Source of the DNA: Phoronis australis
Taxonomy: Eukaryota > Animalia > Phoronida
NCBI GenBank assembly: GCA_002633005.1
Contig: NMRA01000005.1
Span: forward strand, 1,603,048-1,667,047
Length of the DNA: 64,000 nucleotides
Reading direction: 5' to 3'
The notes below the pieces were generated by a model. It was not told the origin of the DNA. It worked only from the letters and a program-made list of their open reading frames with translations, and made no database searches. Positions 35,461-55,000 of this stretch are shown piece by piece. Made by a program: the position numbers and the translations under genes. Numbering within the stretch: the first letter of the stretch is position 1; the number at the start of each line of letters is the position of its first letter.

Positions 35461-35591
35461 CAGGCAAATGGGAGTTTTATTTGTATGTTAGAACCGATTA
35501 CATGCAACATTATTTTGACTACAGTCCCCTTTTAATCTCTCTTGTATTTTTGACCCTTTCAGTTCTCTCCTACTGAAAAGCAGGGTAGGTT

Positions 35592-35678
35592 CACAGGCGT
35601 CCTCAGCTTCTGATCGTCCCCAATACACTACATATAGTATTATGTACTGGGGACGATCAGAAGCTGAGGACGCCTGTG
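35592..35678. mobile_element. 87-bp hAT-type MITE with perfect 31-bp TIRs and 8-bp TSD GGTAGGTT
   Basis: CACAGGCGTCCTCAGCTTCTGATCGTCCCCA (35592-35622) and its exact reverse complement (35648-35678). GGTAGGTT at 35584-35591 and 35679-35686. Confidence 0.9.
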
Positions 35679-35844
35679 GGTAGGTTAAGAAAAAAGGGGC
35701 AAAAATACAAAATCGGCACTTTTCATCCGAACACCACCACTTTCCTGGCAATGCACGACATATACCAATATAACAATCTGAATGAAAATTTTTTTAAGCT
35801 TTTGTAACTACTGCTCCCTCTGTTGTAGGTGATCTAAACCAGTG

Positions 35845-36099
35845 ATGTCACTGCGCAGTCCCATTCAGAAAGAAGTACTGAAGCTGTACAGGCACTTACT
35901 GCGAGCTACTTGGGACAAGCCAAGTCTGAACCGTCTGGTCAGAGACAAATACCGGGAAAACGCTACCATACCCAGGAAAGACACATTCACCATAGACTTC
36001 TTGTTACGACAAGGACAGAAGCAGCTGCAGACACTTAAAGGAAAGGGAGTTCAGACGGGAGGGAGATTTTCTGTCAGAAATTCAAAACCTGATTCTTAA
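35845..36099 (+). CDS. SDHAF1: Succinate dehydrogenase assembly factor 1 (LYR-motif protein), 84 aa, intronless CDS
   Basis: MSLRSPIQKEVLKLYRHLLRA...VRDKYRENATIPRKDTFTIDFLLRQGQKQLQTL matches the SDHAF1 pattern (LQ.QVL.LYR.LLR, .PR.D...IE.L.R.G.RQL). Splice acceptor tgttgtag ends at 35828, 16 nt before the ATG. Confidence 0.88.
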   Translation: MSLRSPIQKEVLKLYRHLLRATWDKPSLNRLVRDKYRENATIPRKDTFTIDFLLRQGQKQLQTLKGKGVQTGGRFSVRNSKPDS

Positions 36100-36129
36100 A
36101 TTCTGAGAAGGCTCAGAAAAAGTGTAAAA

Positions 36130-37113
36130 ATGAGCGTGATTAAGTCGATTTATAGTCGGATTCTGTCGCACTTTCCTGGTGAGATGGAGATGGTGTTTGC
36201 CTATGGTTCAGGAGCATTTCAGCAAACGAGTTTGATTGACAAGTCGAATAACATGCTAGATTTTATTATATCTGTCAACAATTCGACTTTATGGCATCAG
36301 GAAAACATCAAGCGTAACAAGGATCATTACTCATTCTTGAAGAAGCTGGGTCCCAAAACTGTGGCTAAGATACAAGATAAATATGGTGCCAACATTTACT
36401 TCAACACTATGGTTCCTTGTGAAGGCCGTATGATCAAATACGGCGTAATCAGTACCGATCGCTTAGTTAATGATCTCCTCGATTGGGACACACTATACGT
36501 GAGTGGTCGTTTACACAAGCCAGTCCACATGTTGGTGAAACCCAGCTGCAATGTGCTGCAGACTGCGATGAACATTAATAGGCAGAGTGCTGTGCATGCG
36601 GCATTGTTGTTGCTTCCCGACGTTTTCTCTGAAGAAGATTTGTTTATGAAAATTGCTGGTCTGTCGTATTCTGGAGATCTCAGAATGTCTATGGCTGAAG
36701 ATCAAAATAAGGTATCAAACATAGTGAAACCAAACGTCCGTTTTTTTCGCGAATTATACACAAATGAATTAGAACAACAAAGTGACCATTTATACTGGGA
36801 CAAGCATAAGGGGACATTTGAGCAACAGTTGTGCAGTGCTACACAACATTATCATCTGAACATGCTGCCTAAGGCTGTGCAGATTGGATTGGTTGCTTAC
36901 AGGAATATGGATGGCCGCACACGGGATACAGAAGAGGTGTTGAAGAGTATATCACAAGACACTCGCTGCGACGAGCTGATTACTATGTGCATCTCTGGTA
37001 TTGTGAAGAATTCGAGTTTAACTCAGACAGCTAAGGGTTTATTCACTGCTGGCATTGTTAAAAGTGTCAAATATGGGTGGAAAAAAGTTAAGAAGTGGTG
37101 GAAAAGCAGATAA
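36130..37113 (+). CDS. TAMM41: Mitochondrial phosphatidate cytidylyltransferase (CDP-DAG synthase Tam41/Mmp37), 327 aa, intronless
   Basis: ILSHFP, FAYGSG, MLDFI, HYSFLK.LG, IKYGVIS, DLLDWDTLYVSGRLHKPV, IAGLSYSGDLRM, QTAKGLFTAG motifs. Confidence 0.96.
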   Translation: MSVIKSIYSRILSHFPGEMEMVFAYGSGAFQQTSLIDKSNNMLDFIISVNNSTLWHQENIKRNKDHYSFLKKLGPKTVAKIQDKYGANIYFNTMVPCEGRMIKYGVISTDRLVNDLLDWDTLYVSGRLHKPVHMLVKPSCNVLQTAMNINRQSAVHAALLLLPDVFSEEDLFMKIAGLSYSGDLRMSMAEDQNKVSNIVKPNVRFFRELYTNELEQQSDHLYWDKHKGTFEQQLCSATQHYHLNMLPKAVQIGLVAYRNMDGRTRDTEEVLKSISQDTRCDELITMCISGIVKNSSLTQTAKGLFTAGIVKSVKYGWKKVKKWWKSR

Positions 37114-40051: not shown

Positions 40052-43000
40052 TTAGCTAGACTGATTAAGAACATTCTTCAGTATAGCCCCGCCGCTGGGT
40101 GTGGAACTGCGCGAACTGGTTGCACTGTTCTGGGCTGGCTCCGTTGCACTTAACACAGGGGTGAAGGTGGGTATAGCAGACATGAGTAGCTGTGAGTCTG
40201 ACTGACCCTGCAGCTCACCCAGCCTGACTGGTTGGCTGGCGTGCTTTGGCGCCGAGAACGGGTTGAACGCGGGACGCTGATGCTGTTTTTGTTGCTCTTC
40301 TTTCACCATGGCTTCAACAGGCAGCTTCAACTGTGGTTTGGGGGACGACTCCCTCTCTAGGAAGTTGACAAACAACTCTGAGAAGGACTGAAATAGACAG
40401 GAAGTAAAAATGAGAGTAACAAACATTTAGAACTGTGAATCGTATTGCACGTAAAAGCAACTTTGCAAAATAACCAGGGAATCCTGTGTTTACCCGTAGT
40501 TTTCGGTGTAAGTGAAATTAGCCGTTACCAAGGGGAAACAGTATTCTCCGATGACTTCTGGCATGCCCTCTATGACGAATAGTCAAATTCAATTGGATTG
40601 AAGTAAAAAATTAACGACCGGAAATTTTTAACGACACGATAATAATCAAGATGAAGTGTGACCAATCTTGATCATGCATTCAATGAATGATAACGGATAA
40701 AACCCTAAACATACTTCAAACATGAAGAGAGTTTTGAATTTGCGTTTCATTTTTGGAAGCAAGCCACGTAAAGCTAAAGGGCACTATCAAACTATCAAAT
40801 CAATCCAAGAAATATACAGGCATTGCTTACCTGGTTAACTTGACCTTTGGAAGGAGTGACTGGTGGAGTGGGCTTGCTTCCCCACAGACTAGGTAACCAG
40901 CCCCTGCCTGAAGATTCAGCACCGATCTGTAAAACAGTGCATGGCATGTCATTTCATCTGTTCAATCATGCAAGCCCAAGTTATCCACACTAACATGACT
41001 TCAACAAGCTCAGCCTATCACATGACTACACAAACTAGAGGTTTTTGAACCAGCACTTTAAGTTGTATATTCTTTTCAGGGGTTCATGAACTCACTTGAA
41101 ATGGGAAATAAATGATACTCCTTACATACAAGTTGATTTGCTCTAGCAAACTAGAACTTTCCAAGGAATTAAAAGATCACTCTTGGAGATCTCTCGACTC
41201 GCGGCCATTTTTGATCTCATCTGCAAAGTCCCCATGGACTATGAATTGCATTATTACGGCCATGCTTTCATACAAATGCTATTTAGTACTAAATGTTTTA
41301 GTTGACTCGTGGAGTGCATCATTTGAAAAAATCTTATGTGGCATAGCGAATTTCTCACAGATGCTGGCTTTACAGACTGTGCATTGTAAAGCATATCCAT
41401 GAAACCCAGAGAACATTAATTTCTCTGATCACCTTTAGTATGCTTTATATTTGTTGTTTGTGTGATGTTTATGTTTTCATAATCGGACATACAGTACAAG
41501 ACAAACGTAGCCAGAAAAATACACTGTACAAGACAAAAGTAGTCGGACAAAATACCATTTCCCATTATGAAGGTAAATTCAGTCAGTTAACCGCAAGAAC
41601 ATCCAGTAATAACTATTATGAGGGCAAAATTATGGGGGAATGGCTTACTAGAGAAGTTACTAATTTTAGTTCCTGTTAACTCCCCTTCATTCTGGAAACC
41701 CACTCCGACAATAAATTTGGCTTCTGCCCGGTCATCAGGATGGGGAATTCTGGGTATTTTGTCTGATTAATGTTGAAGTGAACTGTAGGTCCACACAGCA
41801 AGTGAGAACGTATGTGTCTTAAGTCAAAACAGTGGAGTAGCTCGGACTATTGTAGCTTAGGGCAGAACATAGAAGTGTCTATTTACACGCAAGACATTGT
41901 GAAGTAGATACCCTGTCATTGGGTTACCATGGCGAGTTGTGGGGCATACCTGAACCAGCTGGTCATGAGTAAAGTCTAGCACACTTCCAACCAAGCGCAA
42001 CACTTCCTGTCTCTTGGCCTGTGGTGCCGTGAAGTAACCCATAAACAAGTTCTTTATGACAGCTCTGCAACGAGAAAGCCATAAGACTCACTACACAGAC
42101 TAGTGGGAGCAGGTCGAGAACTTCTGTTAGGGCCAACATAAAGTGAATTATATTGCATCATTATGCAAAACAAAAAAGTGTAACAGCCCACAGAGAGGGT
42201 ACCATAATCGGAATGGACCCAACATCAAATGGAGCCATTCTGTCAGTGGTAAGAACATGCCAATAAAATGTCATCTAATACCATGACATTGTACCAAATG
42301 TTATCAACAGAAATCAGTTGTAGAGCAGTATTATTATGCTAAAACAGTACAATACTGATTCTGATATCACTTAAACAACTATGTGAATATACTCAGTAGG
42401 TATGCTATTATACTTCAGGGGGTTATATCTGTTTTTGTTAGAGACAATGAGTACTTTCATGAAAAATCAAGAGTCAACTCATGGTCAAGTCGCCATGTCT
42501 CAGCGTTCAACAACTGAAATATAAGCCAACCATGCAGCAGTGGTCAGAGCTAAGTAAACATACTTGTCCACTTTTCCTTCAGTGCTTGTACTCAGCTGAT
42601 GAATGCGATCTTCAGCCTCTTTCAGTTGGTTCTCTCTTAGTTCAACTATAACACACGGAAAATGGGTAAAGAACAGAAGGTACAACTTGTTCATGATTGT
42701 CTCCAATTCTTTATCTTTAAAGAGACCTTCTTAAAATAGTTTCAGTTTAATCATATCTCAACAGAAGTGTCGTCAAACTTCTCTTATAACAGCCCTACTA
42801 TCAATTATGTGAAACCTTCCTCTTACAAATTGACACATCTTAAAAGCCCATGCCTCAATGAGAGAGTTGGAAGTGGCAAAGAGTGCCCACCACTTTTTTG
42901 AAAGGTGCCAAGGGAGCTCCTTTAAGAAAAATGGTCAATCAGTAAAACAATGTTTTCAGTGAGAGCCACCTGATGCCTACTGAAAATCCCCGGTAGAATT

Positions 43001-46000
43001 AAAATTTGTAAAAATTGACAAATACAGCCGGTTATGATAGCCATGAGGTAACCTCACTGAGATTCCAGATTTCTAGCCATATCACCTAACTTCAAACAAT
43101 CAGAATACAATTAGAACTCAGTACTAGATAGTCGCCATCCCTAATTTCAGACCAGTTTATCCCTAATATTAATCGCAAACTGTGCAAAATATCGCGATCT
43201 GACGTCACCCCACTGTGCATATGCTGTTATGAGAGGGTTAGTCGATAGGAGCCACAGCTGGTCGAGTATCACATAGACACTGAAGTCCAACACAGTCAGT
43301 ACCTGATGTAATACTCACTGACTGTTGGCCATGCATGCATGCACACGCTTCATGCACCAATAGTAACCAGAGGAACTGGATGTTGCTATGGCAATATACT
43401 ATTAAGCCTGCCAGCGTAATCTTGTCAAATCAGTAAACATTGGATTTTCATAATAATTAGTTATTGAAGTCTGTAAGTAGACAAAGTGCCCAGTCCCGCT
43501 GCTATGCCATTACATCAAATCAAACTTCCAGTAGTGAGTGAATGACGGTGCTAATTACGCCTAGCATTGTGAGGGTTAAAGGGACAAAATTCATTATGCG
43601 CTATCTGCTACAACCGCAGACCACGTGCACTAACCGACGTGTTAGTACATTAGTAGGTTAGAGAGATGTCTGTGAAATCTCACCTAGTAACTTGAGGCGG
43701 AACCATCTCAATAATTACCAGCTGAGATTAAACAAACAGCTTTTAAGTCATCAAAGAGTGACGAGTTGCCTACAACTCTACTCGAATACATGCGCTTGTA
43801 TTAGATATTATCAGCAACCAAGATGGGCCACGTTATGTGAAGAACTACAGCCCGTAAAGATATGGCCAACAGAGTCAAATCATCATGTTGCAAAACTAGA
43901 GATCAACAACAACGTGAGCATAGGAACGATTCCAGAACAACAAGAATGAGACATAATTAAAACAAAGACACCAACAAGACAAGCTTGGAAACAACAGTTT
44001 CATTCGACAACAGTTTGTTTGGTCAGTGAGGAGACAGACAGTGGATTGCCGTGGAAACGATGCAGGAGTTGACGACGACGGCGTGCGCTGTGTGAAACAG
44101 TGGTGACAGTGAGCCTATTACTATAATACCAGGCTGGATCCCGAGGTCACTCCAGCTCAGAATTACCAGCTGATATTAAAGCAACAGTGTAAAGCACATG
44201 CAGTTAACAGATCATGCAACAGGTGGCGCCAGTTACTGTGCTGTGTTAGTCGTGTGATCGAATAGAAGACAGCAGACTTCAGAACTACCTTGAGGGCGAC
44301 TAACAACAAGATGTTGAATGAGTCAGAATGGTGTCAACAGACAAGCATTTAGCATGAACTTTCCAGAACGTTATACAGGAAGTGTGAAAAAGACAACAAG
44401 ATTGTGGCCACCGGGTTGGTTAGTAGTTAGTTGGCATGCATTGGTGAAACCTCGGCTGATAATCAGGAGGATACAAAGAACAACTCGCAATTACCAGCTG
44501 AGATTAAACCACTGCTACGGTATGACATTAGCAACACAACAACCCAACAGGCAGTACGATACTAGGGTTACTCAGACAAGGATGAAACGACAGTCAGGTA
44601 ACCACAGATCAATAAGAACAACAGCAAATGAAACAGCTGCATGAGCTACAGTGCTGTATGAAATTCTGCTGCCAGCCAACAGGTTTGTGTGGCTGGTCTA
44701 TAATCTCATATATCAAGCCAGTTGTGGTAGAATTACGTTATAGAAGAGTCAGCGTGTACAGGTTAGTATAAACAGTGAATGGCGAAAGAGATGATCGTTT
44801 TTCACGGTTAAATGGGATGCTAATAGCAGTATTGCAGTGAAGAATCACAGCAGTTCTACGAACGCTCAGTTAAAGTCACATACAATCAATGTCATCTTTT
44901 GAAGGGGTATGGATGCCCTTTAAATTTTTTGATGAAGCGAGCTCTGGTGTCTGATATGGTGAGCTAATATTCATTTATTGCTTTGGACACGGTATTTGCC
45001 AAGACAAACATCAATTATTTCAGTTTGAAAGAGACACTCTTTTTATCCTTTGATCTTATTACTGTGTGTGACTTTTAGAACGAAAGTTAAGTTTTTAAAT
45101 AAAGTACAGCGTGGTTTGCCAGCTTAAGGCAACATGCACCACATACAGACAGATAGGCGTGAACAACACGCATCACATTCATACAGCTAGGCGTGAACAA
45201 CATGCATCACATTCATACAGCTAGGTGTTAACAACATGCATCACATTCATACAGCTAGTTGTGAACAACATGCATCACTTTCATACAGCTAGGTGTGAAC
45301 AACATGCATCACATTCATACAGATAGGCGTGAACAACATGCATCATATTCATACAGCTAGGTGTTAACAACATGCAGTGGTCACTGATGTTGTGTTGTTA
45401 CCTTCGTGCTTCAGGGCGTTCATTGCCTCATCCTTACGGTCCAGCTGTTCACTCAACCTGAGGGCTGCCTCCAGTGCATCAGACTGTTCCACCACCTCAT
45501 TCTAAAACAACATGGTGTTGGGAGATATTCAGCTGCAGGGTCGCCAGCAAAGGAAGTTGTGTAAAAACATTGTTACTGGGCATATACTAGGAGCATGTGA
45601 GTAAAGGGAAATACAGCCCGTTCATTCCAGGACAGTATAGCACACTGGTCTCAGCTATTAACTATCACTTCAAATCTGGAATTTGCTGGCAGCCAATGAG
45701 CATTGGGATGGTGTTGGCTCTTGTCTGCATGTCCTTGACCTTAAGTGCATGAAAGAGAGTGGCTATGTTGCAAATGACTTTTGTGGAAAGCTGTAGTGAG
45801 CACTGGAATGGTACTCTGATAAAAAATGAATTAAATAACAAATAGCCAATTAACATTTCAACACTCACCAGTGACAGCGGTATTGAAATGATAGTTTCAG
45901 ATAAAGCTTGAACTTGGATCTACGGAACAAACTTATCATGATTGCAATGAAACACTTTGAGGATAAGAGTTAGGGTAACAACACTGAGGTAGATATACCT

Positions 46001-49000
46001 TGAGTTGGGCCACCTCTACCTTCAGTGACATACACTCCTGCTTCTGGTTCTCCAACTCCTTTAGGTGTTGCTCCTGCTCGACGGCCTTCTCTGTCTGGAA
46101 CTGCTCTAGCACCATCTGTAGGTTGGCAAGAGAGTGCGCGTACTGGCGAGTCTGTTCCTGACTAGACTGCAGCTGTAGGACTGCTTGGTCCCGCTGACTT
46201 GCCACTTGGTGGAGCTGCTGTTGCAGGTTATCCATTTGCTGGCTGGCTTGCAAACTGCGAGTTACATGACATACTTAAAGGTTCTTGTCCGATCTAGTCA
46301 GTTGGTTATAAGAAATAATAACATTATAAAATCAATATTCACACCTGAACTACATCATTGAACCATTAGCTCTCTAAAAAATTATCATTTTCTAGAATTT
46401 ACCAGTCACAACAATACTTCTACTAAGCTCCGTAATCCATATACTTAACAAACCCTCCCACTTCCTATTTGTGATGACCCCTGTAACAAGGGTATGAGTG
46501 TCCCGCATGTGTTCTTACTTGACACTCTCCACAGCACTTGAAGATGACTGTGCCTTCTCTTCAGCCACAGCCAGACGTGTCCTGAGATCTTTTTCACGCT
46601 CTTCCGCCTCTAACGCTTCTCTGGTGTAGCCTTCTTCAATCTACAAGACAAATCATACACTGTGTGGCATGACCATGATGATGCGAAGAAACACGATGCA
46701 AGCATAAATGATCATATAAAAGTTTTAGTTGACAACAAACTGAGACATGCAGTAGTGAGGTGTAACACATGAAGAGCAGTCCTTGTTACTGCAGACACTG
46801 AAGTACACAGCTCACAGAAAACCTGTTGTCTTGATATACATTATAATCATCAATTTTTTGCTTAAAATCAATTGCAGATGAGAAGGTTACATCTCATACA
46901 TAAAACACTTCTTCATACCATCACTAAATGTTCTTTTATCAGATGTATTCCAAAAACTAAACTTGATGGAGTAGTAACCCCATTAAACAGCAATAATCAT
47001 ATCCCCATTACATCCCTCAGTACTAACTTGTAGGTGAGCCCTCAGTACTAACCTGTAGAAGAAGAGCTCTCAGTACTAACATGTAGAATGTGAGCTCTCA
47101 GTACTAACCTGCAGAATGTGAGCTCTCAGTACTAACCTGCAGAATGTGAGCTCTCAGTACTAACCTGTAGAATGTGAGCTCTCAGTACTAACCTGCAGAA
47201 GGCGAGCCCTCCGTACTAACCTGTAGAACGAGAGCTCTCAGTACTAACCTGTAGAATGTGAGCTCTCAGTACTAACCAGGGCTTGGAATTTTCTGCGGAA
47301 ACGCGGATTTCCGCTTTTTTGAAATGTGCTTTCCGCTTTTTTTATAATATTTCCGCGTAAAAAAATCGGATTTGACATGAAATTTCCGCGGCAAATTCCT
47401 TTCTTACCGCGGCGTTGCAGACGATGTTCACCTCGGAAAGCGGAAGTCTTTATGTTTCGGAGGAACGTAAATTGCCAACATTGCCGGAGCATCTGGGTAA
47501 AGCGTGGTGTGATTTTCAATGGCGGCTCGTGTTATTGTTAAGCGCGCCGACAAATACTACCGCTCTGCAGCCAAATTTGTGTGAGTTGGGAGTGGACGGG
47601 CGAGCGAAAAGGACGCAGACGCATGCTACTGATGGTGGTAACGTTTTTTTTTTTTTTTTAGTCCTCCCGATTTTTGTCGCGGAAAGGTTCACATTGACCA
47701 TTTCAAAGGCTGGTTATCGGGCATGATTTGGGCCGTAAAAGTTTCCGCGTTTTTGTCATTGGTCATTCCAAGCCCTGACTAACCTGTAGAAGGCGAGCCC
47801 TCAGTACTAACCTGTAGAACGTGAGCTCTCAGTACTAACCTGTAGAATGTGAGCTCTCAGAACTAACCTGTAGAATGTGAGCTCTCAGAACTAACCTGTA
47901 GAAGGTGAGCCCTCAGCCTCTCCAGTTCCTTGGACAGTTTCTGCTCCTGGCTTTTCAGTAGGCTGACTTGCTCTACCAACTGACTATTCTCTAGCTGGCG
48001 CTGCTGCAGGGCCAGAAGCACCTGGTCCCTCTCCTGTTGAAACATGCGTGATTGTGACTGCAAGCTCTCACTCTCCTGCAGTAGGCGACCCACTTCACTA
48101 CTCTCGCCTCGCTCACGGGCCTAGGAAAGAATAACAGAGTGTGAACACACGAGATGATACTATACCATATCCCATCCAGTAACTCTGAATGGTCTACGCT
48201 TACTTTTATGACCAGCTTCTTTTGTTTGTGGACATGGTAACAGAGATGGAAGATATTGATACCACTGGCATCACTCATCACAGAATAGGCTGACTTGGCT
48301 TGAGCATGTAACAGCCCAATTGGCATTTTTTAGGTTTACTATCCAAACAGCCCTAAGGGATACGGAGACATTTGATTCCGGGAGAGAGCCGTGAATAGTT
48401 TTTGAAATAGTTACAGATGAACTTATCAATTATTCTAAACACAATTTAAGCACTGATTTGTTAATAACGAAGCAGAATTTAAGATTGAACTAATAGCGTG
48501 AGCTAGTGGTAAAGCAAGCATCTTGTAACTAAAATACCACATATTCAAATCTCCCTTGGCTGTACAGCTACACCTCGATACCAACCTCATGCTTCCTAGT
48601 TTCGTTTAGTGTGAACGCATGAAATTGTATTATTAAGTGTGAGTTTAGGAGCATAACACAGTGGAAAACCTGTAATTCGGGAGGTTCCTTGTGGAGAAGA
48701 CCTGATGTGGACCTGATTCATAATTTGTGTTTAACCTGTCAATTTGATGGATTTTGAGGCTCACTTGTGGTTGCTTATTCGCACTTGCACCAGCAACATG
48801 TGCCCAAGCGATTCAGTGCTGTTTCCCACAATATTGTTTACACGTCAACGAGTTATCAGTGTTTACGAGCCGAAAACCATCCCACACTGCACGTGACAAT
48901 CATCAGCAATGCAGTACAAGAATCCCCTCAAATTCTCACAGGTGTTTTCAATGTCAATATGTGGTACAAAAAGTTAGCAAAAAATTTGCATCTAAAAGCT

Positions 49001-52000: not shown

Positions 52001-55000
52001 AGCCTGGTTCATCTCCTTTTCCATCGCTGCCTTCTCAGCCTTCAGCGCATCTACCTGTGTCTCAAGTTCTTCCACATACTTCTCATACTTGACATTCAGC
52101 TGCTCAACCTCAGCAGAATACTGCTTCTCGCTGTTCTCAACCTTCACCGATAACCTCTGCCTCTCTTCACTCATGTTAGCCACCACTCCCTCCAGCTCGG
52201 CAACATTCTGCTGAAGCTCTTCATTATCTTTTTGATGTCTCACACGAGCCTCATTCTCAGCCTCAACCTGTTTCTCAAGGTAGTCCACCTTATCTTGCAA
52301 CTTGTTCACTTTGTCTGTGTTAGCACTGTTTTCACGAAGTAAGAACAGTTCACCCTTAGCAGACTCGAGTTTCTCAGAAAGCTCAGCCAAGTTCTGCTCC
52401 AGCTCACTCTTTTCCTTCTTATACTTCAACTCACTGTTTCTTCCTGCTTCAATACGTCCCTTCAACTCACTGATGGTACTTTCCAATTCTTTCTTATCCA
52501 TATGCAAATCATTCACTGCCATTGCCCCTGCTTCAAGCTTGGTTCTCAACTGTGAGATTTCCTGCTGCAGGTGTTCTCTCTCGCTACTCAAATTTCTCAT
52601 TTCTTCTACAGATGTTTCTAATTGTTGTCTGATGTCACAAAGCTGTTGAGTCATCTCCTTGTTCTCCTTGTTAAGTTGGTCCCTTCTGTCAACAATTTGC
52701 GTCATCGCCGTCTGGTGTTGGCTATCCAACTCGTCCAGACTGGTCAATAAGGCATCCCTTTCCACGCTTATTTCAGCCAGCCGTTGTTCTTTCTCTTCTA
52801 ATTTAGACACAACATCATCTTCCCCTTGGCTTTTGCGTTCGTCTGCAAAATACAAACATGATAAAAACCCATCCATCACTTTACTACTAATTCTAGTCCG
52901 TTGCACTCGAAAAACAACACAATTCAATAATCAGTCTTAGGTCAGTTTGCATCAACAACCATGTTAGGAGTTTCCAAGACACTTTGGTCAGCAATTTTTG
53001 CAACCATCATCTGATTAACAATGAATGGTACTCAGTGCTACCACTTGCCAATATTACAAACTAGTGCGGTTGGTCTGATGTTACATAATGAAGTGCACAG
53101 GTCACTCAGCCGGGCTCATTACACCAAACACTGACCAAGCTGAGGAACTACAAACCAGGCTCAAGGGTATAGCAAAGGGCTCCAGTGGGATTTGAATCCA
53201 CAGCCTTGAGAACAGGAAGCAGACACTCAAACCAACAGTTCACACTGCCTCTTCTCTAACTGATATTTTCTTATCTCAAGAAGTTCTTTCTCAAATGAAG
53301 AAGTTAAATATGAGGAACTTAACTCATGATATCAACAAACATTTCAAATTCACCTATTTAGTAAAATATTAGCAAGTTATGAGCAAATTACCTTTAGAAA
53401 CAAACGATGCGTGTAGGTCTTCATACTGGGTCTTAACAGAGCTTAATTCCTCTTCAATGCCATTCTGAAAAGATGGGTCACAATAACAGACAAAACAAAC
53501 TGAAAGTACATTCTACGCCTATTATTCTTTCCATGGCAGGAAACAATGTAGCATGGTTTATCTGTTCAATGAATAAACAACAAAATCTAATATCTGATTA
53601 CGGAACACACCACTCAAACTCTGAGGTAAAAATAAGATGAAGACTGTACTTTTCATCAGGTGGTATCCCACGCTGAAAAATTGCTATAGACATAACATGA
53701 TAGAGAACATACTGGAATTTAAATGACAGAGCCGAGTCCAAAAAGAAGCTGGTGTACTTGGGTTTATTATTGACCTGTTACTATGATGCCTCACCCCAGT
53801 TTAACTGTATCGTAGACATTTTTGCAATATCCTTACAATTCTAATACCATTCAAAAACCTACAATTTTGTCAATCTACAACACTGTACTCTCATTTAGAG
53901 GAACTGGAAATTTTTCATAAAACTCTTTGGTTTTTAAAATGCAACAAGGTGTTTACTTAGTTTGCTGACTAGGTTTGTTGCTTCTTTCTGTACCAATGGG
54001 ATCTGCATAAACATATTTTTAGTGATGCCAGTCTCAGAACTAAGTGACGACCACAAGCATGGGCTACGGGAGAGGGATTCAACTGATAAAAATAAAGACA
54101 TGCCAGGCAAAACAATAAAATTTGTAATCAAATCCCTAATCACAGCCTGTGATCAATAAATTTTACTCAAGACTAAAAAATTGACCAATCGCATGTCATC
54201 TTCGTGATAATTTTCCAACTTCACGCAATGTGACGGTCAACTTTCCAGTCGAGTCTTGAGAAAAAATTGCGGTTACGGGCAAGGTTCCCCAAATTGTGAA
54301 GTGCAAATATGCCAATGGTTGAGACGACCAAAACCAATACAACTGGCTACAACTCCACCCCCTACTACCACCTGTGTGTCCAGGGCCAGATGGTCTCTCT
54401 CTAGCTGGGCATTAGCCAGAGCTACTAATTCGAACTTTCCCAGGCCACTGATAGCAGTACAATTGGGCACAGCTCCACCTTCCCCACCACCCAGTGTGTC
54501 TAGGGCCACCCACCCTGGCTGTCACTAGCTGCTCTTTCCCTGTCTGTAGCTGGGCATTAGCCAGAATTACTAACTTGAACTTTCCAAGACCTCTGATAGC
54601 AGTACAACTGGGCACAAATCCATCTCAACCCTCTACCACCTGGTGTTTGTGTTCAGGGCAACCCACCTTGCTCTTCATTAGCTGATCTCTTTCCCTCTCC
54701 AGCTGGGCATTAGCCAGTGTTAGTAGCTCCACCTTTTGGACCAAGTCATGAATGCCAGTCTCTATATCACTCTCAGACTCAGACTCACTGTCTGCACCAG
54801 TACGATCATGCTTCTCAACAGCTATCAAACCCTGGTGAATAAACACATGCAGTTGCACTTCAAAAAACAAAAAGAAAACGAAACAATATAGCAATCACAG
54901 TTACTTCAACAAAAGCTGATCAGCTAGAAATATGTTAGATAAAAATAACACTTAAGCCAGGTCATAATCCAGTGCCATGACCACAAAACTTCAACCAATC

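What the first reader, a model, noticed from the sequence alone, without database searches (positions are those of the whole stretch)
43255..44510. mir-216/mir-12 microRNA cluster inside a TRIP11 (GMAP-210) intron
Seen: a recurring 20-mer (AATTACCAGCTGAKATTAAA, three times) is the reverse complement of three miR-216-family matures, each with a star arm, followed by miR-12. All are sense to intron 45401-42646, just upstream of the GRAB-domain exons. Known: the Drosophila mir-283/304/12 cluster lies in an intron of Gmap, the TRIP11 orthologue. Inference: the host-gene association dates back to the protostome ancestor. Here there are two AAUCUCA-seed paralogues and one AAUAUCA-seed paralogue, in the order 216, 216b/283, 216, 12.
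Basis: partly seen in the sequence, partly recalled or inferred. Interest (0 to 1): 0.75.

Follow-up and report, generated by a model that had tools for sequence, protein, structure and literature searches.

The report
miR-216/miR-12 cluster in TRIP11 intron
Three miR-216-family hairpins and one miR-12 hairpin lie, in sense, inside a spliced intron of the Golgi-protein gene TRIP11 (GMAP-210) and are predicted to be cut out as microRNAs; the arrangement is real but already published for oyster, limpet, fly and tick.

Summary
The 20-mer occurs three times (0 expected). It marks the 5' arms of three minus-strand hairpins that match Rfam mir-216. A fourth hairpin matches mir-12. All four score below Rfam's gathering cut-offs, but their window-wide E-values are 1e-5 to 2e-4. 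The host is a TRIP11/GMAP-210 orthologue: 71 of 85 hits are named TRIP11 and none carries another name. RNA-seq reads of the same species label splice out exactly 42646-45401 on the minus strand. In 47 metagenome loci holding the miR-12 mature sequence, 20 have miR-216-like hairpins upstream on the same strand. Fourteen have TRIP11 exons, all in sense. Several show the same intron position as the window.

Mol Biol Evol 2025 (PMC11848845) dates 216~trip11 to Bilateria and 12~trip11 to Protostomia. Its Dataset S1 lists Mir-216-P2, Mir-216-P1 and Mir-12 in trip11 of oyster, limpet and fly.

Two small additions come from this work. There is an extra upstream AAUCUCA-seed copy, also seen in loci L025 and L043. 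Sense RNA also accumulates from the base of the miR-12 hairpin to the 3' splice site, which fits Drosha cropping. No small-RNA library could be tested. Interest is low.

The parts
44439..44514 (-). Mir-216 paralogue 'a' hairpin (AAUCUCA seed). The 5p arm is 44506-44485; the predicted 3p arm is 44466-44445.
   Evidence: Rfam RF00654 at 39.9 bits, E 1e-5 over 2.9 kb and 2.3e-4 over the window. Fold -32.2 kcal/mol, z -4.2.
44116..44186 (-). Mir-216 paralogue 'b' hairpin (AAUAUCA seed, mir-283 type). The 5p arm is 44178-44157; the predicted 3p arm is 44142-44122.
   Evidence: Rfam RF00654 at 40.4 bits. Fold -35.1 kcal/mol, z -2.8. Its 5p arm is 100% identical over 21-27 nt to loci L001, L005, L024 and L025.
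43667..43738 (-). Mir-216 paralogue 'c' hairpin (AAUCUCA seed). The 5p arm is 43730-43709; the predicted 3p arm is 43692-43673.
   Evidence: Rfam RF00654 at 44.9 bits, E 1.1e-5 window-wide. Fold -32.9 kcal/mol, z -4.5.
43255..43324 (-). Mir-12 hairpin. The 5p arm is 43317-43296 (seed GAGUAUU); the predicted 3p arm is 43281-43260.
   Evidence: Rfam RF00751 at 42.2 bits, E 1.6e-5 window-wide. Fold z -3.5. The 21-nt 5p sequence is found exactly in 47 metagenome loci. The first base pair beyond that fixed 21-mer covaries: AU 14, UG 10, GC 7, CG 2.
42646..45401 (-). Host intron of 2756 nt in the TRIP11 orthologue, holding all four hairpins in sense.
   Evidence: GT at 45401-45400 and AG at 42647-42646. 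The joint 42645->45402 is seen in 18, 27 and 7 reads of X1-X3 and in one X4 contig, all with the strand signature of the host exons.
45402..45501 (-). TRIP11 exon just upstream of the microRNA intron.
   Evidence: tblastn to Haliotis TRIP11 residues 1915-1947. Joints and the X4 contig piece 45402-45501 confirm the limits.
42564..42645 (-). TRIP11 exon just downstream of the microRNA intron.
   Evidence: Joints 42645->45402 and 42064->42564, plus X4 piece 42564-42645. tblastn to Solemya P0037 residues 2159-2199.
41950..42064 (-). TRIP11 exon carrying the GRAB-domain match.
   Evidence: Pfam PF10375 GRAB at E 2.9e-5, 24.2 bits against a cut-off of 26, covering profile positions 8-48 of 49.
42646..43259 (-). 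Tail of the intron downstream of Mir-12 that accumulates as sense RNA. It is inferred to be the 3' product of Drosha cropping, still joined to the downstream exons.
   Evidence: Depth is 2-16 in X1-X3, continuous from the exon edge up to between 43247 and 43264. Depth is zero from 43265, through the 25-nt bins up to 43360, and about zero in the coarser bins on to 44423. The predicted Drosha 3' cut lies after 43260. The other introns laid have depth of about 0-1.7.

Best explanation
Four hairpins on the minus strand (three Mir-216 paralogues and Mir-12) lie in sense inside the 2756-nt intron 45401-42646 of the TRIP11/GMAP-210 orthologue. They are predicted to be cropped by Drosha from the host pre-mRNA and diced into roughly 22-nt 5p microRNAs.

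Shown directly: the hairpins exist, their 5p arms match the mir-216 and mir-12 models, the host is TRIP11, the intron is spliced on the minus strand, and the same cluster sits in sense within TRIP11 in independent loci.

Inferred: the host promoter drives the cluster. Each hairpin is then released by the Microprocessor before or during splicing. This leaves the piece downstream of Mir-12 attached to the 3' part of the message. The mature products would have seeds AAUCUCA (twice), AAUAUCA and GAGUAUU.

Hairpins b, c and 12 correspond to the published Mir-216-P2, Mir-216-P1 and Mir-12 order. Matching the ATC-seed copy to P2 and the CTC-seed copy to P1 rests on my recall of the fly sequences. Hairpin a is an extra upstream copy with the P1-type seed.
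For: The repeat occurs 3 times against 0 expected. Rfam gives four minus-strand hits with window-wide E-values of 1.1e-5 to 2.3e-4, with the consensus 5p arm aligned base for base. The four hairpins have folding z-scores of -2.8 to -4.5. Among 90-nt windows of the intron, they are the only single long hairpins that fold well.

Host identity: 85 hits, of which 71 are named TRIP11 or TRIPB, 14 are unnamed or generic, and none has another name. Fifty-eight of the 85 carry Pfam GRAB. Exons are collinear with 7 of those 85 proteins. There is a GRAB hit on exon 41950-42064.

RNA-seq: the joint 42645->45402 appears in 18, 27 and 7 reads, and all transcription is on the host strand. The intron tail is covered up to the base of Mir-12, and the hairpin region is empty.

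Conservation: 47 loci hold the exact Mir-12 21-mer. Twenty of the 47 have 216-like matches upstream on the same strand. Thirty-one of 34 distinct 216-like sites and 35 of 37 distinct Mir-12 sites fold with the conserved 22-mer in the 5' arm. Fourteen of the 47 loci have TRIP11 exons. All 14 are in sense, and 8 are flanked on both sides. All 71 blastn matches between the intron and the loci fall inside the four hairpins.

Print: PMC11848845 Table 2 and Dataset S1, PMC4043116 and PMC12714197.
Against: None of the four hairpins reaches Rfam's gathering score: 39.9-44.9 against 53.5, and 42.2 against 55. No small-RNA reads were available, so mature and star products and their 2-nt overhangs are predicted, not seen. 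Hairpin c also scores 37.9 bits on the + strand, though no + strand RNA was seen. A MAFFT/RNAalifold run on 31 of the 34 distinct Mir-216-like hairpins (two non-hairpin matches and a near-duplicate left out) recovered only 7 pairs, because loop lengths differ. The Mir-12 5p arm was fixed by the search pattern, so it cannot show covariation. Thirty-three of the 47 loci gave no TRIP11 hit; many are short contigs, or their host may be too diverged for the 10 queries used. The RNA-seq depths are small: 88 to 172 reads per run over 4.9 kb.
Confidence: 0.9

Rival explanations
1. The hairpins are real microRNA genes, but they are transcribed from their own promoter inside the intron, independently of TRIP11.
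For: In the fly the cluster and Gmap differ somewhat in sex bias, -1.1 against -0.3 (PMC4043116 Table 2). Coverage of the intron upstream of hairpin a is low, 0.4-5. That would also be expected if little host pre-mRNA is captured.
Against: Sense orientation within TRIP11 is kept in 14 of 14 informative loci. It is also kept in every species row of Dataset S1. That is the pattern expected when the host supplies transcription. No read pile-up or start site was reported inside the intron.
Confidence: 0.15
2. The RNA covering 42646 to about 43259 is not a Drosha product. Instead it is an alternative first exon or a retained-intron isoform that starts just downstream of Mir-12.
For: In X3 the tail has depth 7-14. 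That is deeper than the fully exonic upstream bin 46064-46227 at 2.5. Downstream joints (11 reads) also outnumber upstream joints (7, 4 and 4). An in-frame ATG at 42694 opens onto the exon.
Against: The upper edge falls between 43247 and 43264, within about 12 nt of the predicted Drosha cut after 43260. The ends are ragged, and in X2 coverage begins only near 43110. That suits 5'-to-3' decay better than a fixed start site. The tail shows no conservation in the 47 loci. A general 3' bias in X3 would explain the depth ratio.
Confidence: 0.25
3. One of the three Mir-216 copies, most likely 'a', is a decaying duplicate that no longer yields a microRNA.
For: Hairpin a has the lowest Rfam score (39.9 bits) and the most non-canonical positions in the model alignment. 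Published mollusc, fly and tick clusters list at most two Mir-216 genes in trip11.
Against: Its first 18 5p bases are identical to those of copy c. It folds well, at -32.2 kcal/mol with z -4.2. A CTC-seed copy in the same first position is present in L024, L025, L043, L006, L012 and L019.
Confidence: 0.1
4. The hairpins are chance or transposon-derived inverted repeats with no microRNA function.
For: The window does hold a non-microRNA perfect palindrome at 35591-35679 that drew weak Rfam microRNA hits.
Against: The arms are conserved while loops and flanks vary across dozens of loci. The stems are imperfect and microRNA-like. Neighbours and host gene are conserved.
Confidence: 0.01

Closest known systems
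Mir-216-P2 / Mir-216-P1 / Mir-12 cluster in trip11 of Crassostrea gigas and Lottia gigantea (MirGeneDB genes as tabulated in PMC11848845 Dataset S1)
   Same: Same host gene family, sense orientation and intragenic position. The Mir-216 genes lie upstream of Mir-12 within about 1-4 kb. The window's hairpins b, c and 12 fit this order.
   Different: The window has a third Mir-216 hairpin ('a', AAUCUCA seed) upstream of the other two. I saw the mollusc entries only as table rows with coordinates, not as sequence. I therefore could not check which seed each P-number has.
Drosophila melanogaster mir-283 / mir-304 / mir-12 cluster in Gmap
   Same: The cluster overlaps Gmap (PMC4043116 Table 2), and miR-283 is described as nested in Gmap (PMC12714197). 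Dataset S1 lists Dme-Mir-216-P2, Dme-Mir-216-P1 and Dme-Mir-12 in the trip11 family host, in sense. mir-283 and mir-304 are described as duplicates with changed seeds (PMC4238352).
   Different: The fly has two Mir-216-family genes, not three. Whether the fly intron is at the homologous codon could not be tested, because no fly genomic sequence was at hand.
Chordate Mir-216 / Mir-217 cluster (in trip11 in amphioxus, hagfish and lamprey; the host was lost in jawed vertebrates)
   Same: Mir-216 lies in sense inside trip11. The 5p arm matches the Rfam mir-216 consensus.
   Different: The partner gene is Mir-217, not Mir-12. According to PMC11848845, jawed vertebrates no longer keep the trip11 host at this cluster.

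Membership tests
Mir-216 family (Rfam RF00654; MirGeneDB MIR-216) | Reaches the Rfam gathering score of the covariance model (53.5 bits) | tested here: not met
   Scores are 44.9, 40.4 and 39.9 bits. E-values are 1.1e-5 to 2.3e-4 for the whole window, both strands. This is a curation threshold of one model, not what defines the gene family. The hits are statistically significant.
Mir-216 family (Rfam RF00654; MirGeneDB MIR-216) | Conserved 5p arm with the family seed, aligned to the model consensus | tested here: met
   The cmscan alignments place UAAUCUCAGCUGGUAA (a, c) and UAAUAUCAGCUGGUAA (b) on the consensus AAUCuCagCUgGcAa of the 5' arm.
Mir-216 family (Rfam RF00654; MirGeneDB MIR-216) | Imperfect hairpin of about 60-75 nt with the mature sequence in a duplex of about 22 bp | tested here: met
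   Eighteen to 20 of the 22 mature bases are paired in the three window hairpins.
Mir-216 family (Rfam RF00654; MirGeneDB MIR-216) | Conserved neighbourhood: inside trip11, in sense, upstream of Mir-12 in protostomes | tested here: met
   compared with Dataset S1 of PMC11848845.
Mir-216 and Mir-12 as bona fide microRNAs | Small-RNA reads for both arms with fixed 5' ends and 2-nt 3' overhangs | not testable with these tools
   Only three long-read-pair RNA-seq runs and one contig set were offered. Both read-laying runs were used on them.
Mir-12 family (Rfam RF00751; MirGeneDB MIR-12) | Reaches the Rfam gathering score (55 bits) | tested here: not met
   42.2 bits, E 7.4e-7 over 2.9 kb and 1.6e-5 over the window.
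Mir-12 family (Rfam RF00751; MirGeneDB MIR-12) | Conserved 5p mature sequence in a hairpin, with a complementary 3p arm | tested here: met
   The window 5p agrees with the model consensus UGAGUaUUACAuCAgGUACUGGU at 21 of 23 positions. The 21-mer is exact in 47 loci. Thirty-five of 37 distinct sites fold with it in the 5' arm. The first free base pair covaries.
TRIP11 / GMAP-210 / Gmap | Sequence homology along a very long coiled-coil protein, with collinear exons | tested here: met
   The 1053-aa exon gave 85 hits. Seventy-one are named TRIP11 or TRIPB and none has another name; the best is 8e-93. tblastn of 7 of the 85 proteins gave 7 to 10 collinear segments each, spanning 60251 to 40061, with residue order preserved.
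TRIP11 / GMAP-210 / Gmap | C-terminal GRAB (Arf1-binding) domain | tested here: inconclusive
   PF10375 at E 2.9e-5, 24.2 bits, just under the 26-bit cut-off, covering 41 of 49 profile positions on a single-exon translation. Fifty-eight of the 85 homologues carry PF10375.
TRIP11 / GMAP-210 / Gmap | N-terminal ALPS membrane-curvature motif | not tested
   The 5' exons were not analysed. That this motif belongs to the family is recalled, not taken from any call.
Canonical (Drosha-dependent) intronic microRNA, as opposed to a mirtron | Hairpin ends lie away from the splice sites | tested here: met
   The nearest hairpin ends are 887 nt from the 5' splice site (45401 against 44514). They are 609 nt from the 3' splice site (43255 against 42646).

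The most novel reading that the evidence does not exclude
Cropping of the Mir-12 hairpin cuts the TRIP11 pre-mRNA and leaves a stable 5'-truncated RNA. This RNA would run from about 43259 through the unspliced intron tail into the GRAB-domain exons. In one sample (X3) it is deeper than the upstream exons. The ancient microRNA cluster would then double as a switch that splits the host message just ahead of its Arf1-binding end. That could help explain why this host-microRNA link has been kept since the bilaterian ancestor.
Probability: 0.12. Interest if true: 0.45.

Novelty: new member of a known kind. Interest (0 to 1): 0.18.

Why it matters
The Mir-216/trip11 link is one of the oldest microRNA-host gene associations, dated to Bilateria in PMC11848845. 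This window adds one more spiralian-like example, supported at the RNA level by splicing evidence. It also shows a three-copy Mir-216 state and a conserved intron position in several independent loci. None of this changes the published picture. Its main value is as a clean annotation of four microRNA genes and their host intron.

Tried and rejected
- **Rfam at gathering thresholds:** 0 hits in the window. The hits appear only at E-value thresholds.
- **Search for RNA runs holding the stretch:** no RNA holder was listed. The runs offered came through the species label.
- **RNAalifold on a MAFFT alignment of 31 Mir-216-like hairpins:** only 7 pairs were recovered because loops differ in length. 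I replaced this with single-sequence folds.
- **A fifth hairpin in the intron:** the only other low-energy stretch, 44721-44612, is branched and has z -1.25, so I rejected it.
- **Sub-threshold Rfam hits MIR1428 and mir-125 at 35591-35679:** this is a perfect palindrome, not a microRNA.
- **Parhyale genome paper (PMC5111886):** its 'GMAP' is the mapping program, so it is irrelevant to the host gene. It reports that mir-283 was not found there.
- **Earlier findings of this scan:** nothing by place, by words or by sequence.
- **Whole-genome search:** no genome is held for this window, so I could not look for further copies of the cluster.
- **Orthology of copies a and c across loci:** their 5p 3' halves show no diagnostic differences. 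I built no tree, because about 60 nt would not resolve one.
- **Literature search for Drosha, Xrn2 and intronic cropping:** it returned one paper, which was not to the point.
Full report
**The observation.** The 20-mer AATTACCAGCTGAKATTAAA occurs on the + strand at 43713, 44161 and 44489. It occurs nowhere else in the window, even with two mismatches allowed. None of 100 dinucleotide-preserving shuffles produced a match. Read on the minus strand, each copy is the 5' arm of a stem-loop. A fourth stem-loop follows 350 nt downstream.

Folded alone, the four hairpins give -32.2, -35.1, -32.9 and -40.3 kcal/mol. Their z-scores are -4.2, -2.8, -4.5 and -3.5. In a sliding 90-nt scan of the whole intron, they are the only single long hairpins among the low-energy windows. 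The one other low-energy stretch, 44721-44612, is branched and has z -1.25.

**What the hairpins are.** At Rfam's gathering thresholds the window has no hit at all. With E-value reporting, mir-216 (RF00654) matches three sites on the minus strand:
- 43738-43667 at 44.9 bits
- 44186-44116 at 40.4 bits
- 44514-44439 at 39.9 bits

mir-12 (RF00751) matches 43324-43255 at 42.2 bits. Window-wide E-values run from 1.1e-5 to 2.3e-4. The alignments place the window's 5' arms base for base on the consensus mature regions. The seeds are AAUCUCA, AAUAUCA, AAUCUCA and GAGUAUU.

The scores fall short of the gathering cut-offs of 53.5 and 55, and I report that as a failed threshold. It is a curation threshold of these models rather than the definition of the gene families. 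The other family features are met: seed, arm, hairpin and neighbourhood.

**The host gene.** The minus strand carries a 1053-codon open exon at 52930-49769. Searching it gave 85 hits. Seventy-one are named TRIP11 or TRIPB, 14 are unnamed or generic, and none carries another name. Fifty-eight of the 85 carry the Pfam GRAB domain. The best hits are a gastropod, an annelid and two bivalves at 24-31% identity.

I took 7 of the 85 proteins for tblastn: four of those spiralians, Solemya, amphioxus and a sea urchin. Each gave 7 to 10 collinear segments, spanning 60251 down to 40061. The exon at 42064-41950 matches Pfam GRAB at E 2.9e-5. Its 24.2 bits are just under the 26-bit cut-off.

The neighbouring Tam41 gene has its best named relatives in annelids, molluscs, nemerteans and a brachiopod, at 53-60% identity. 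The animal is therefore likely a spiralian with no close relative in the database. I did not try to name it.

**The intron, and RNA evidence.** The sequence shows GT at 45401-45400 and AG at 42647-42646 on the minus strand.

Three raw RNA-seq runs and one contig set with the same species label were offered. Laid on 41800-46700, they show the joint 42645->45402, which skips 2756 nt with CT..AC ends on the + strand. It appears in 18, 27 and 7 reads and in one contig. The neighbouring joints 42064->42564, 45501->45999 and 46254->46519 are also seen. Nearly all reads have the first mate on +, the signature of the minus-strand host. The intron is therefore real, is spliced, and is transcribed in the sense of the hairpins.

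**An asymmetry inside the intron.** The other introns laid have depth of about 0-1.7. The microRNA intron is different. Its tail from the 3' splice site up to the base of the Mir-12 hairpin has depth 2-16 in all three runs. From 43276 to 44423 it is essentially empty, apart from 3.5 in one X2 bin. The part upstream of hairpin a has depth 0.4-5.

With 25-nt bins, coverage is continuous from the exon edge. It falls within the bin 43240-43264 and is zero from 43265. From the fold, a 2-nt-overhang Drosha cut on the 3' side of Mir-12 is predicted after 43260. The downstream piece would then begin at 43259.

I read this as the 3' product of cropping, still joined to the downstream exons. This is an inference. 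It rests on the established view that intronic hairpins are cropped before splicing is complete (Kim and Kim 2007; Morlando et al. 2008). Both papers are recalled and were not seen here.

An internal start site is the rival reading. In X3 the tail (depth 7-14) is deeper than the fully exonic bin 46064-46227 (depth 2.5). However, read numbers are small (88 reads), and a general 3' bias would produce the same ratio.

**Related loci.** A scan of metagenome contigs with the 21-nt Mir-12 5p sequence returned 47 loci.
- Oriented on Mir-12, 21 of the 47 have at least one match on the same strand to AAT[AC]TCAGCTGGTAA with up to two changes. Twenty of these lie upstream. The one downstream match, in L033, does not fold.
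- Thirty-one of 34 distinct 216-like sites fold with the conserved 22-mer in the 5' arm, with at least 16 of 22 bases paired. So do 35 of 37 distinct Mir-12 sites.
- In the Mir-12 alignment the 5p arm is fixed by construction. The first pair beyond it covaries (AU 14, UG 10, GC 7, CG 2), while loops and flanks vary.
- All 71 blastn matches between the window's intron and the loci fall inside the four hairpins.
- tblastn with 10 of the 85 TRIP11 proteins found TRIP11 exons in 14 of the 47 loci. All are on the Mir-12 strand, and 8 loci are flanked on both sides.
- The exon before the cluster ends at residue 1947 of the Haliotis protein in the window and in L012, L019 and L025. The exon after the cluster begins at residue 1948-1950 in L031 and L019. 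The intron position is therefore shared.
- The other 33 loci gave no TRIP11 hit. Many are short contigs.

**Comparison with what is known.** In Drosophila the mir-283-mir-12 cluster overlaps Gmap (PMC4043116, Table 2 passage). miR-283 is called nested in Gmap (PMC12714197, passage). mir-283 and mir-304 are treated as duplicates with changed seeds (PMC4238352, passages).

The decisive source is PMC11848845 (Mol Biol Evol 2025), of which I saw passages and supplement rows. Its Table 2 lists 216~trip11 as arising in Bilateria, 12~trip11 in Protostomia and 217~trip11 in Chordata. Rows 3 to 32 of the 33 'trip11' occurrences in its supplement give the following, all intragenic and in sense:
- Mir-216-P2, Mir-216-P1 and Mir-12 in trip11 of Crassostrea gigas, Lottia gigantea and Drosophila
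- Mir-216-P1 and Mir-12 in Ixodes
- Mir-216 with Mir-217 in three amphioxus species, hagfish and lamprey

For Mir-216 the link is older than the protostome ancestor.

**What is additional here.** The published protostome entries have at most two Mir-216 genes in trip11. The window has three, in the order CTC seed, ATC seed, CTC seed, then Mir-12. L025 and L043 have the same order. L024 has the first two copies. L001 and L005 have the last two. L006, L012 and L019 have CTC-ATC-12. L014 and L027 have ATC-CTC-12.

A three-copy ancestor with reciprocal losses would explain both two-copy orders. I could not test this. The copies carry no diagnostic differences, and the organisms behind the loci are unknown. 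Matching the ATC-seed copy to P2 and the CTC-seed copy to P1 rests on my recall of the fly sequences, not on a call.

**Verdict.** The feature is real and correctly interpreted: four canonical intronic microRNA genes in the TRIP11 orthologue. It is a new instance of a published, ancient arrangement, with a third paralogue as a minor variation. Processing into small RNAs remains predicted, because no small-RNA library was available. Interest is low.

Noticed in passing
window 35833-37113 (+): A LYR-motif ORF (Pfam Complex1_LYR, E 1.5e-10; 35833-36099) and a complete Tam41 ORF (PF09139, E 1e-110; ATG at 36130) lie in one reading frame. They are separated by a single stop codon and 30 nt, and neither has an intron. 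Two Tam41 homologues in the database, P0104 (427 aa) and P0200 (419 aa, a freshwater mussel), carry both Pfam domains in one gene model. The pairing therefore recurs. It could be a bicistronic message, a stop-codon read-through or an annotation fusion.
   Followed up: partly
window 35591-35679 (-): A perfect palindrome of about 37 bp (-78.7 kcal/mol, z -15) is flanked on both sides by the 9-nt direct repeat AACCTACCC. It looks like a miniature foldback or MITE-type insertion with a target-site duplication. It drew sub-threshold Rfam hits to MIR1428 and mir-125, which should not be taken as microRNA genes.
   Followed up: partly
window 54397-54717: A 145-bp tandem repeat of 2.2 copies with 79% matches lies inside the TRIP11 gene span. 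On the minus strand it repeats an open frame with the motif LANAQLE, next to the ORF at 54894-54625. It may be a partly duplicated exon. None of the 7 TRIP11 proteins aligned there.
   Followed up: no
window 42646-43259 (-): The tail of the microRNA intron accumulates as sense RNA. In run X3 it is deeper than the upstream TRIP11 exons. An in-frame ATG at 42694 opens onto the next exon.
   Followed up: partly
L040 (two Mir-12 matches, 427 nt apart): One metagenome locus holds the Mir-12 21-mer twice on the same strand. Only one copy folds as a hairpin; the other has 11 of 22 bases paired and z -0.2. This suggests a decayed tandem duplicate.
   Followed up: no
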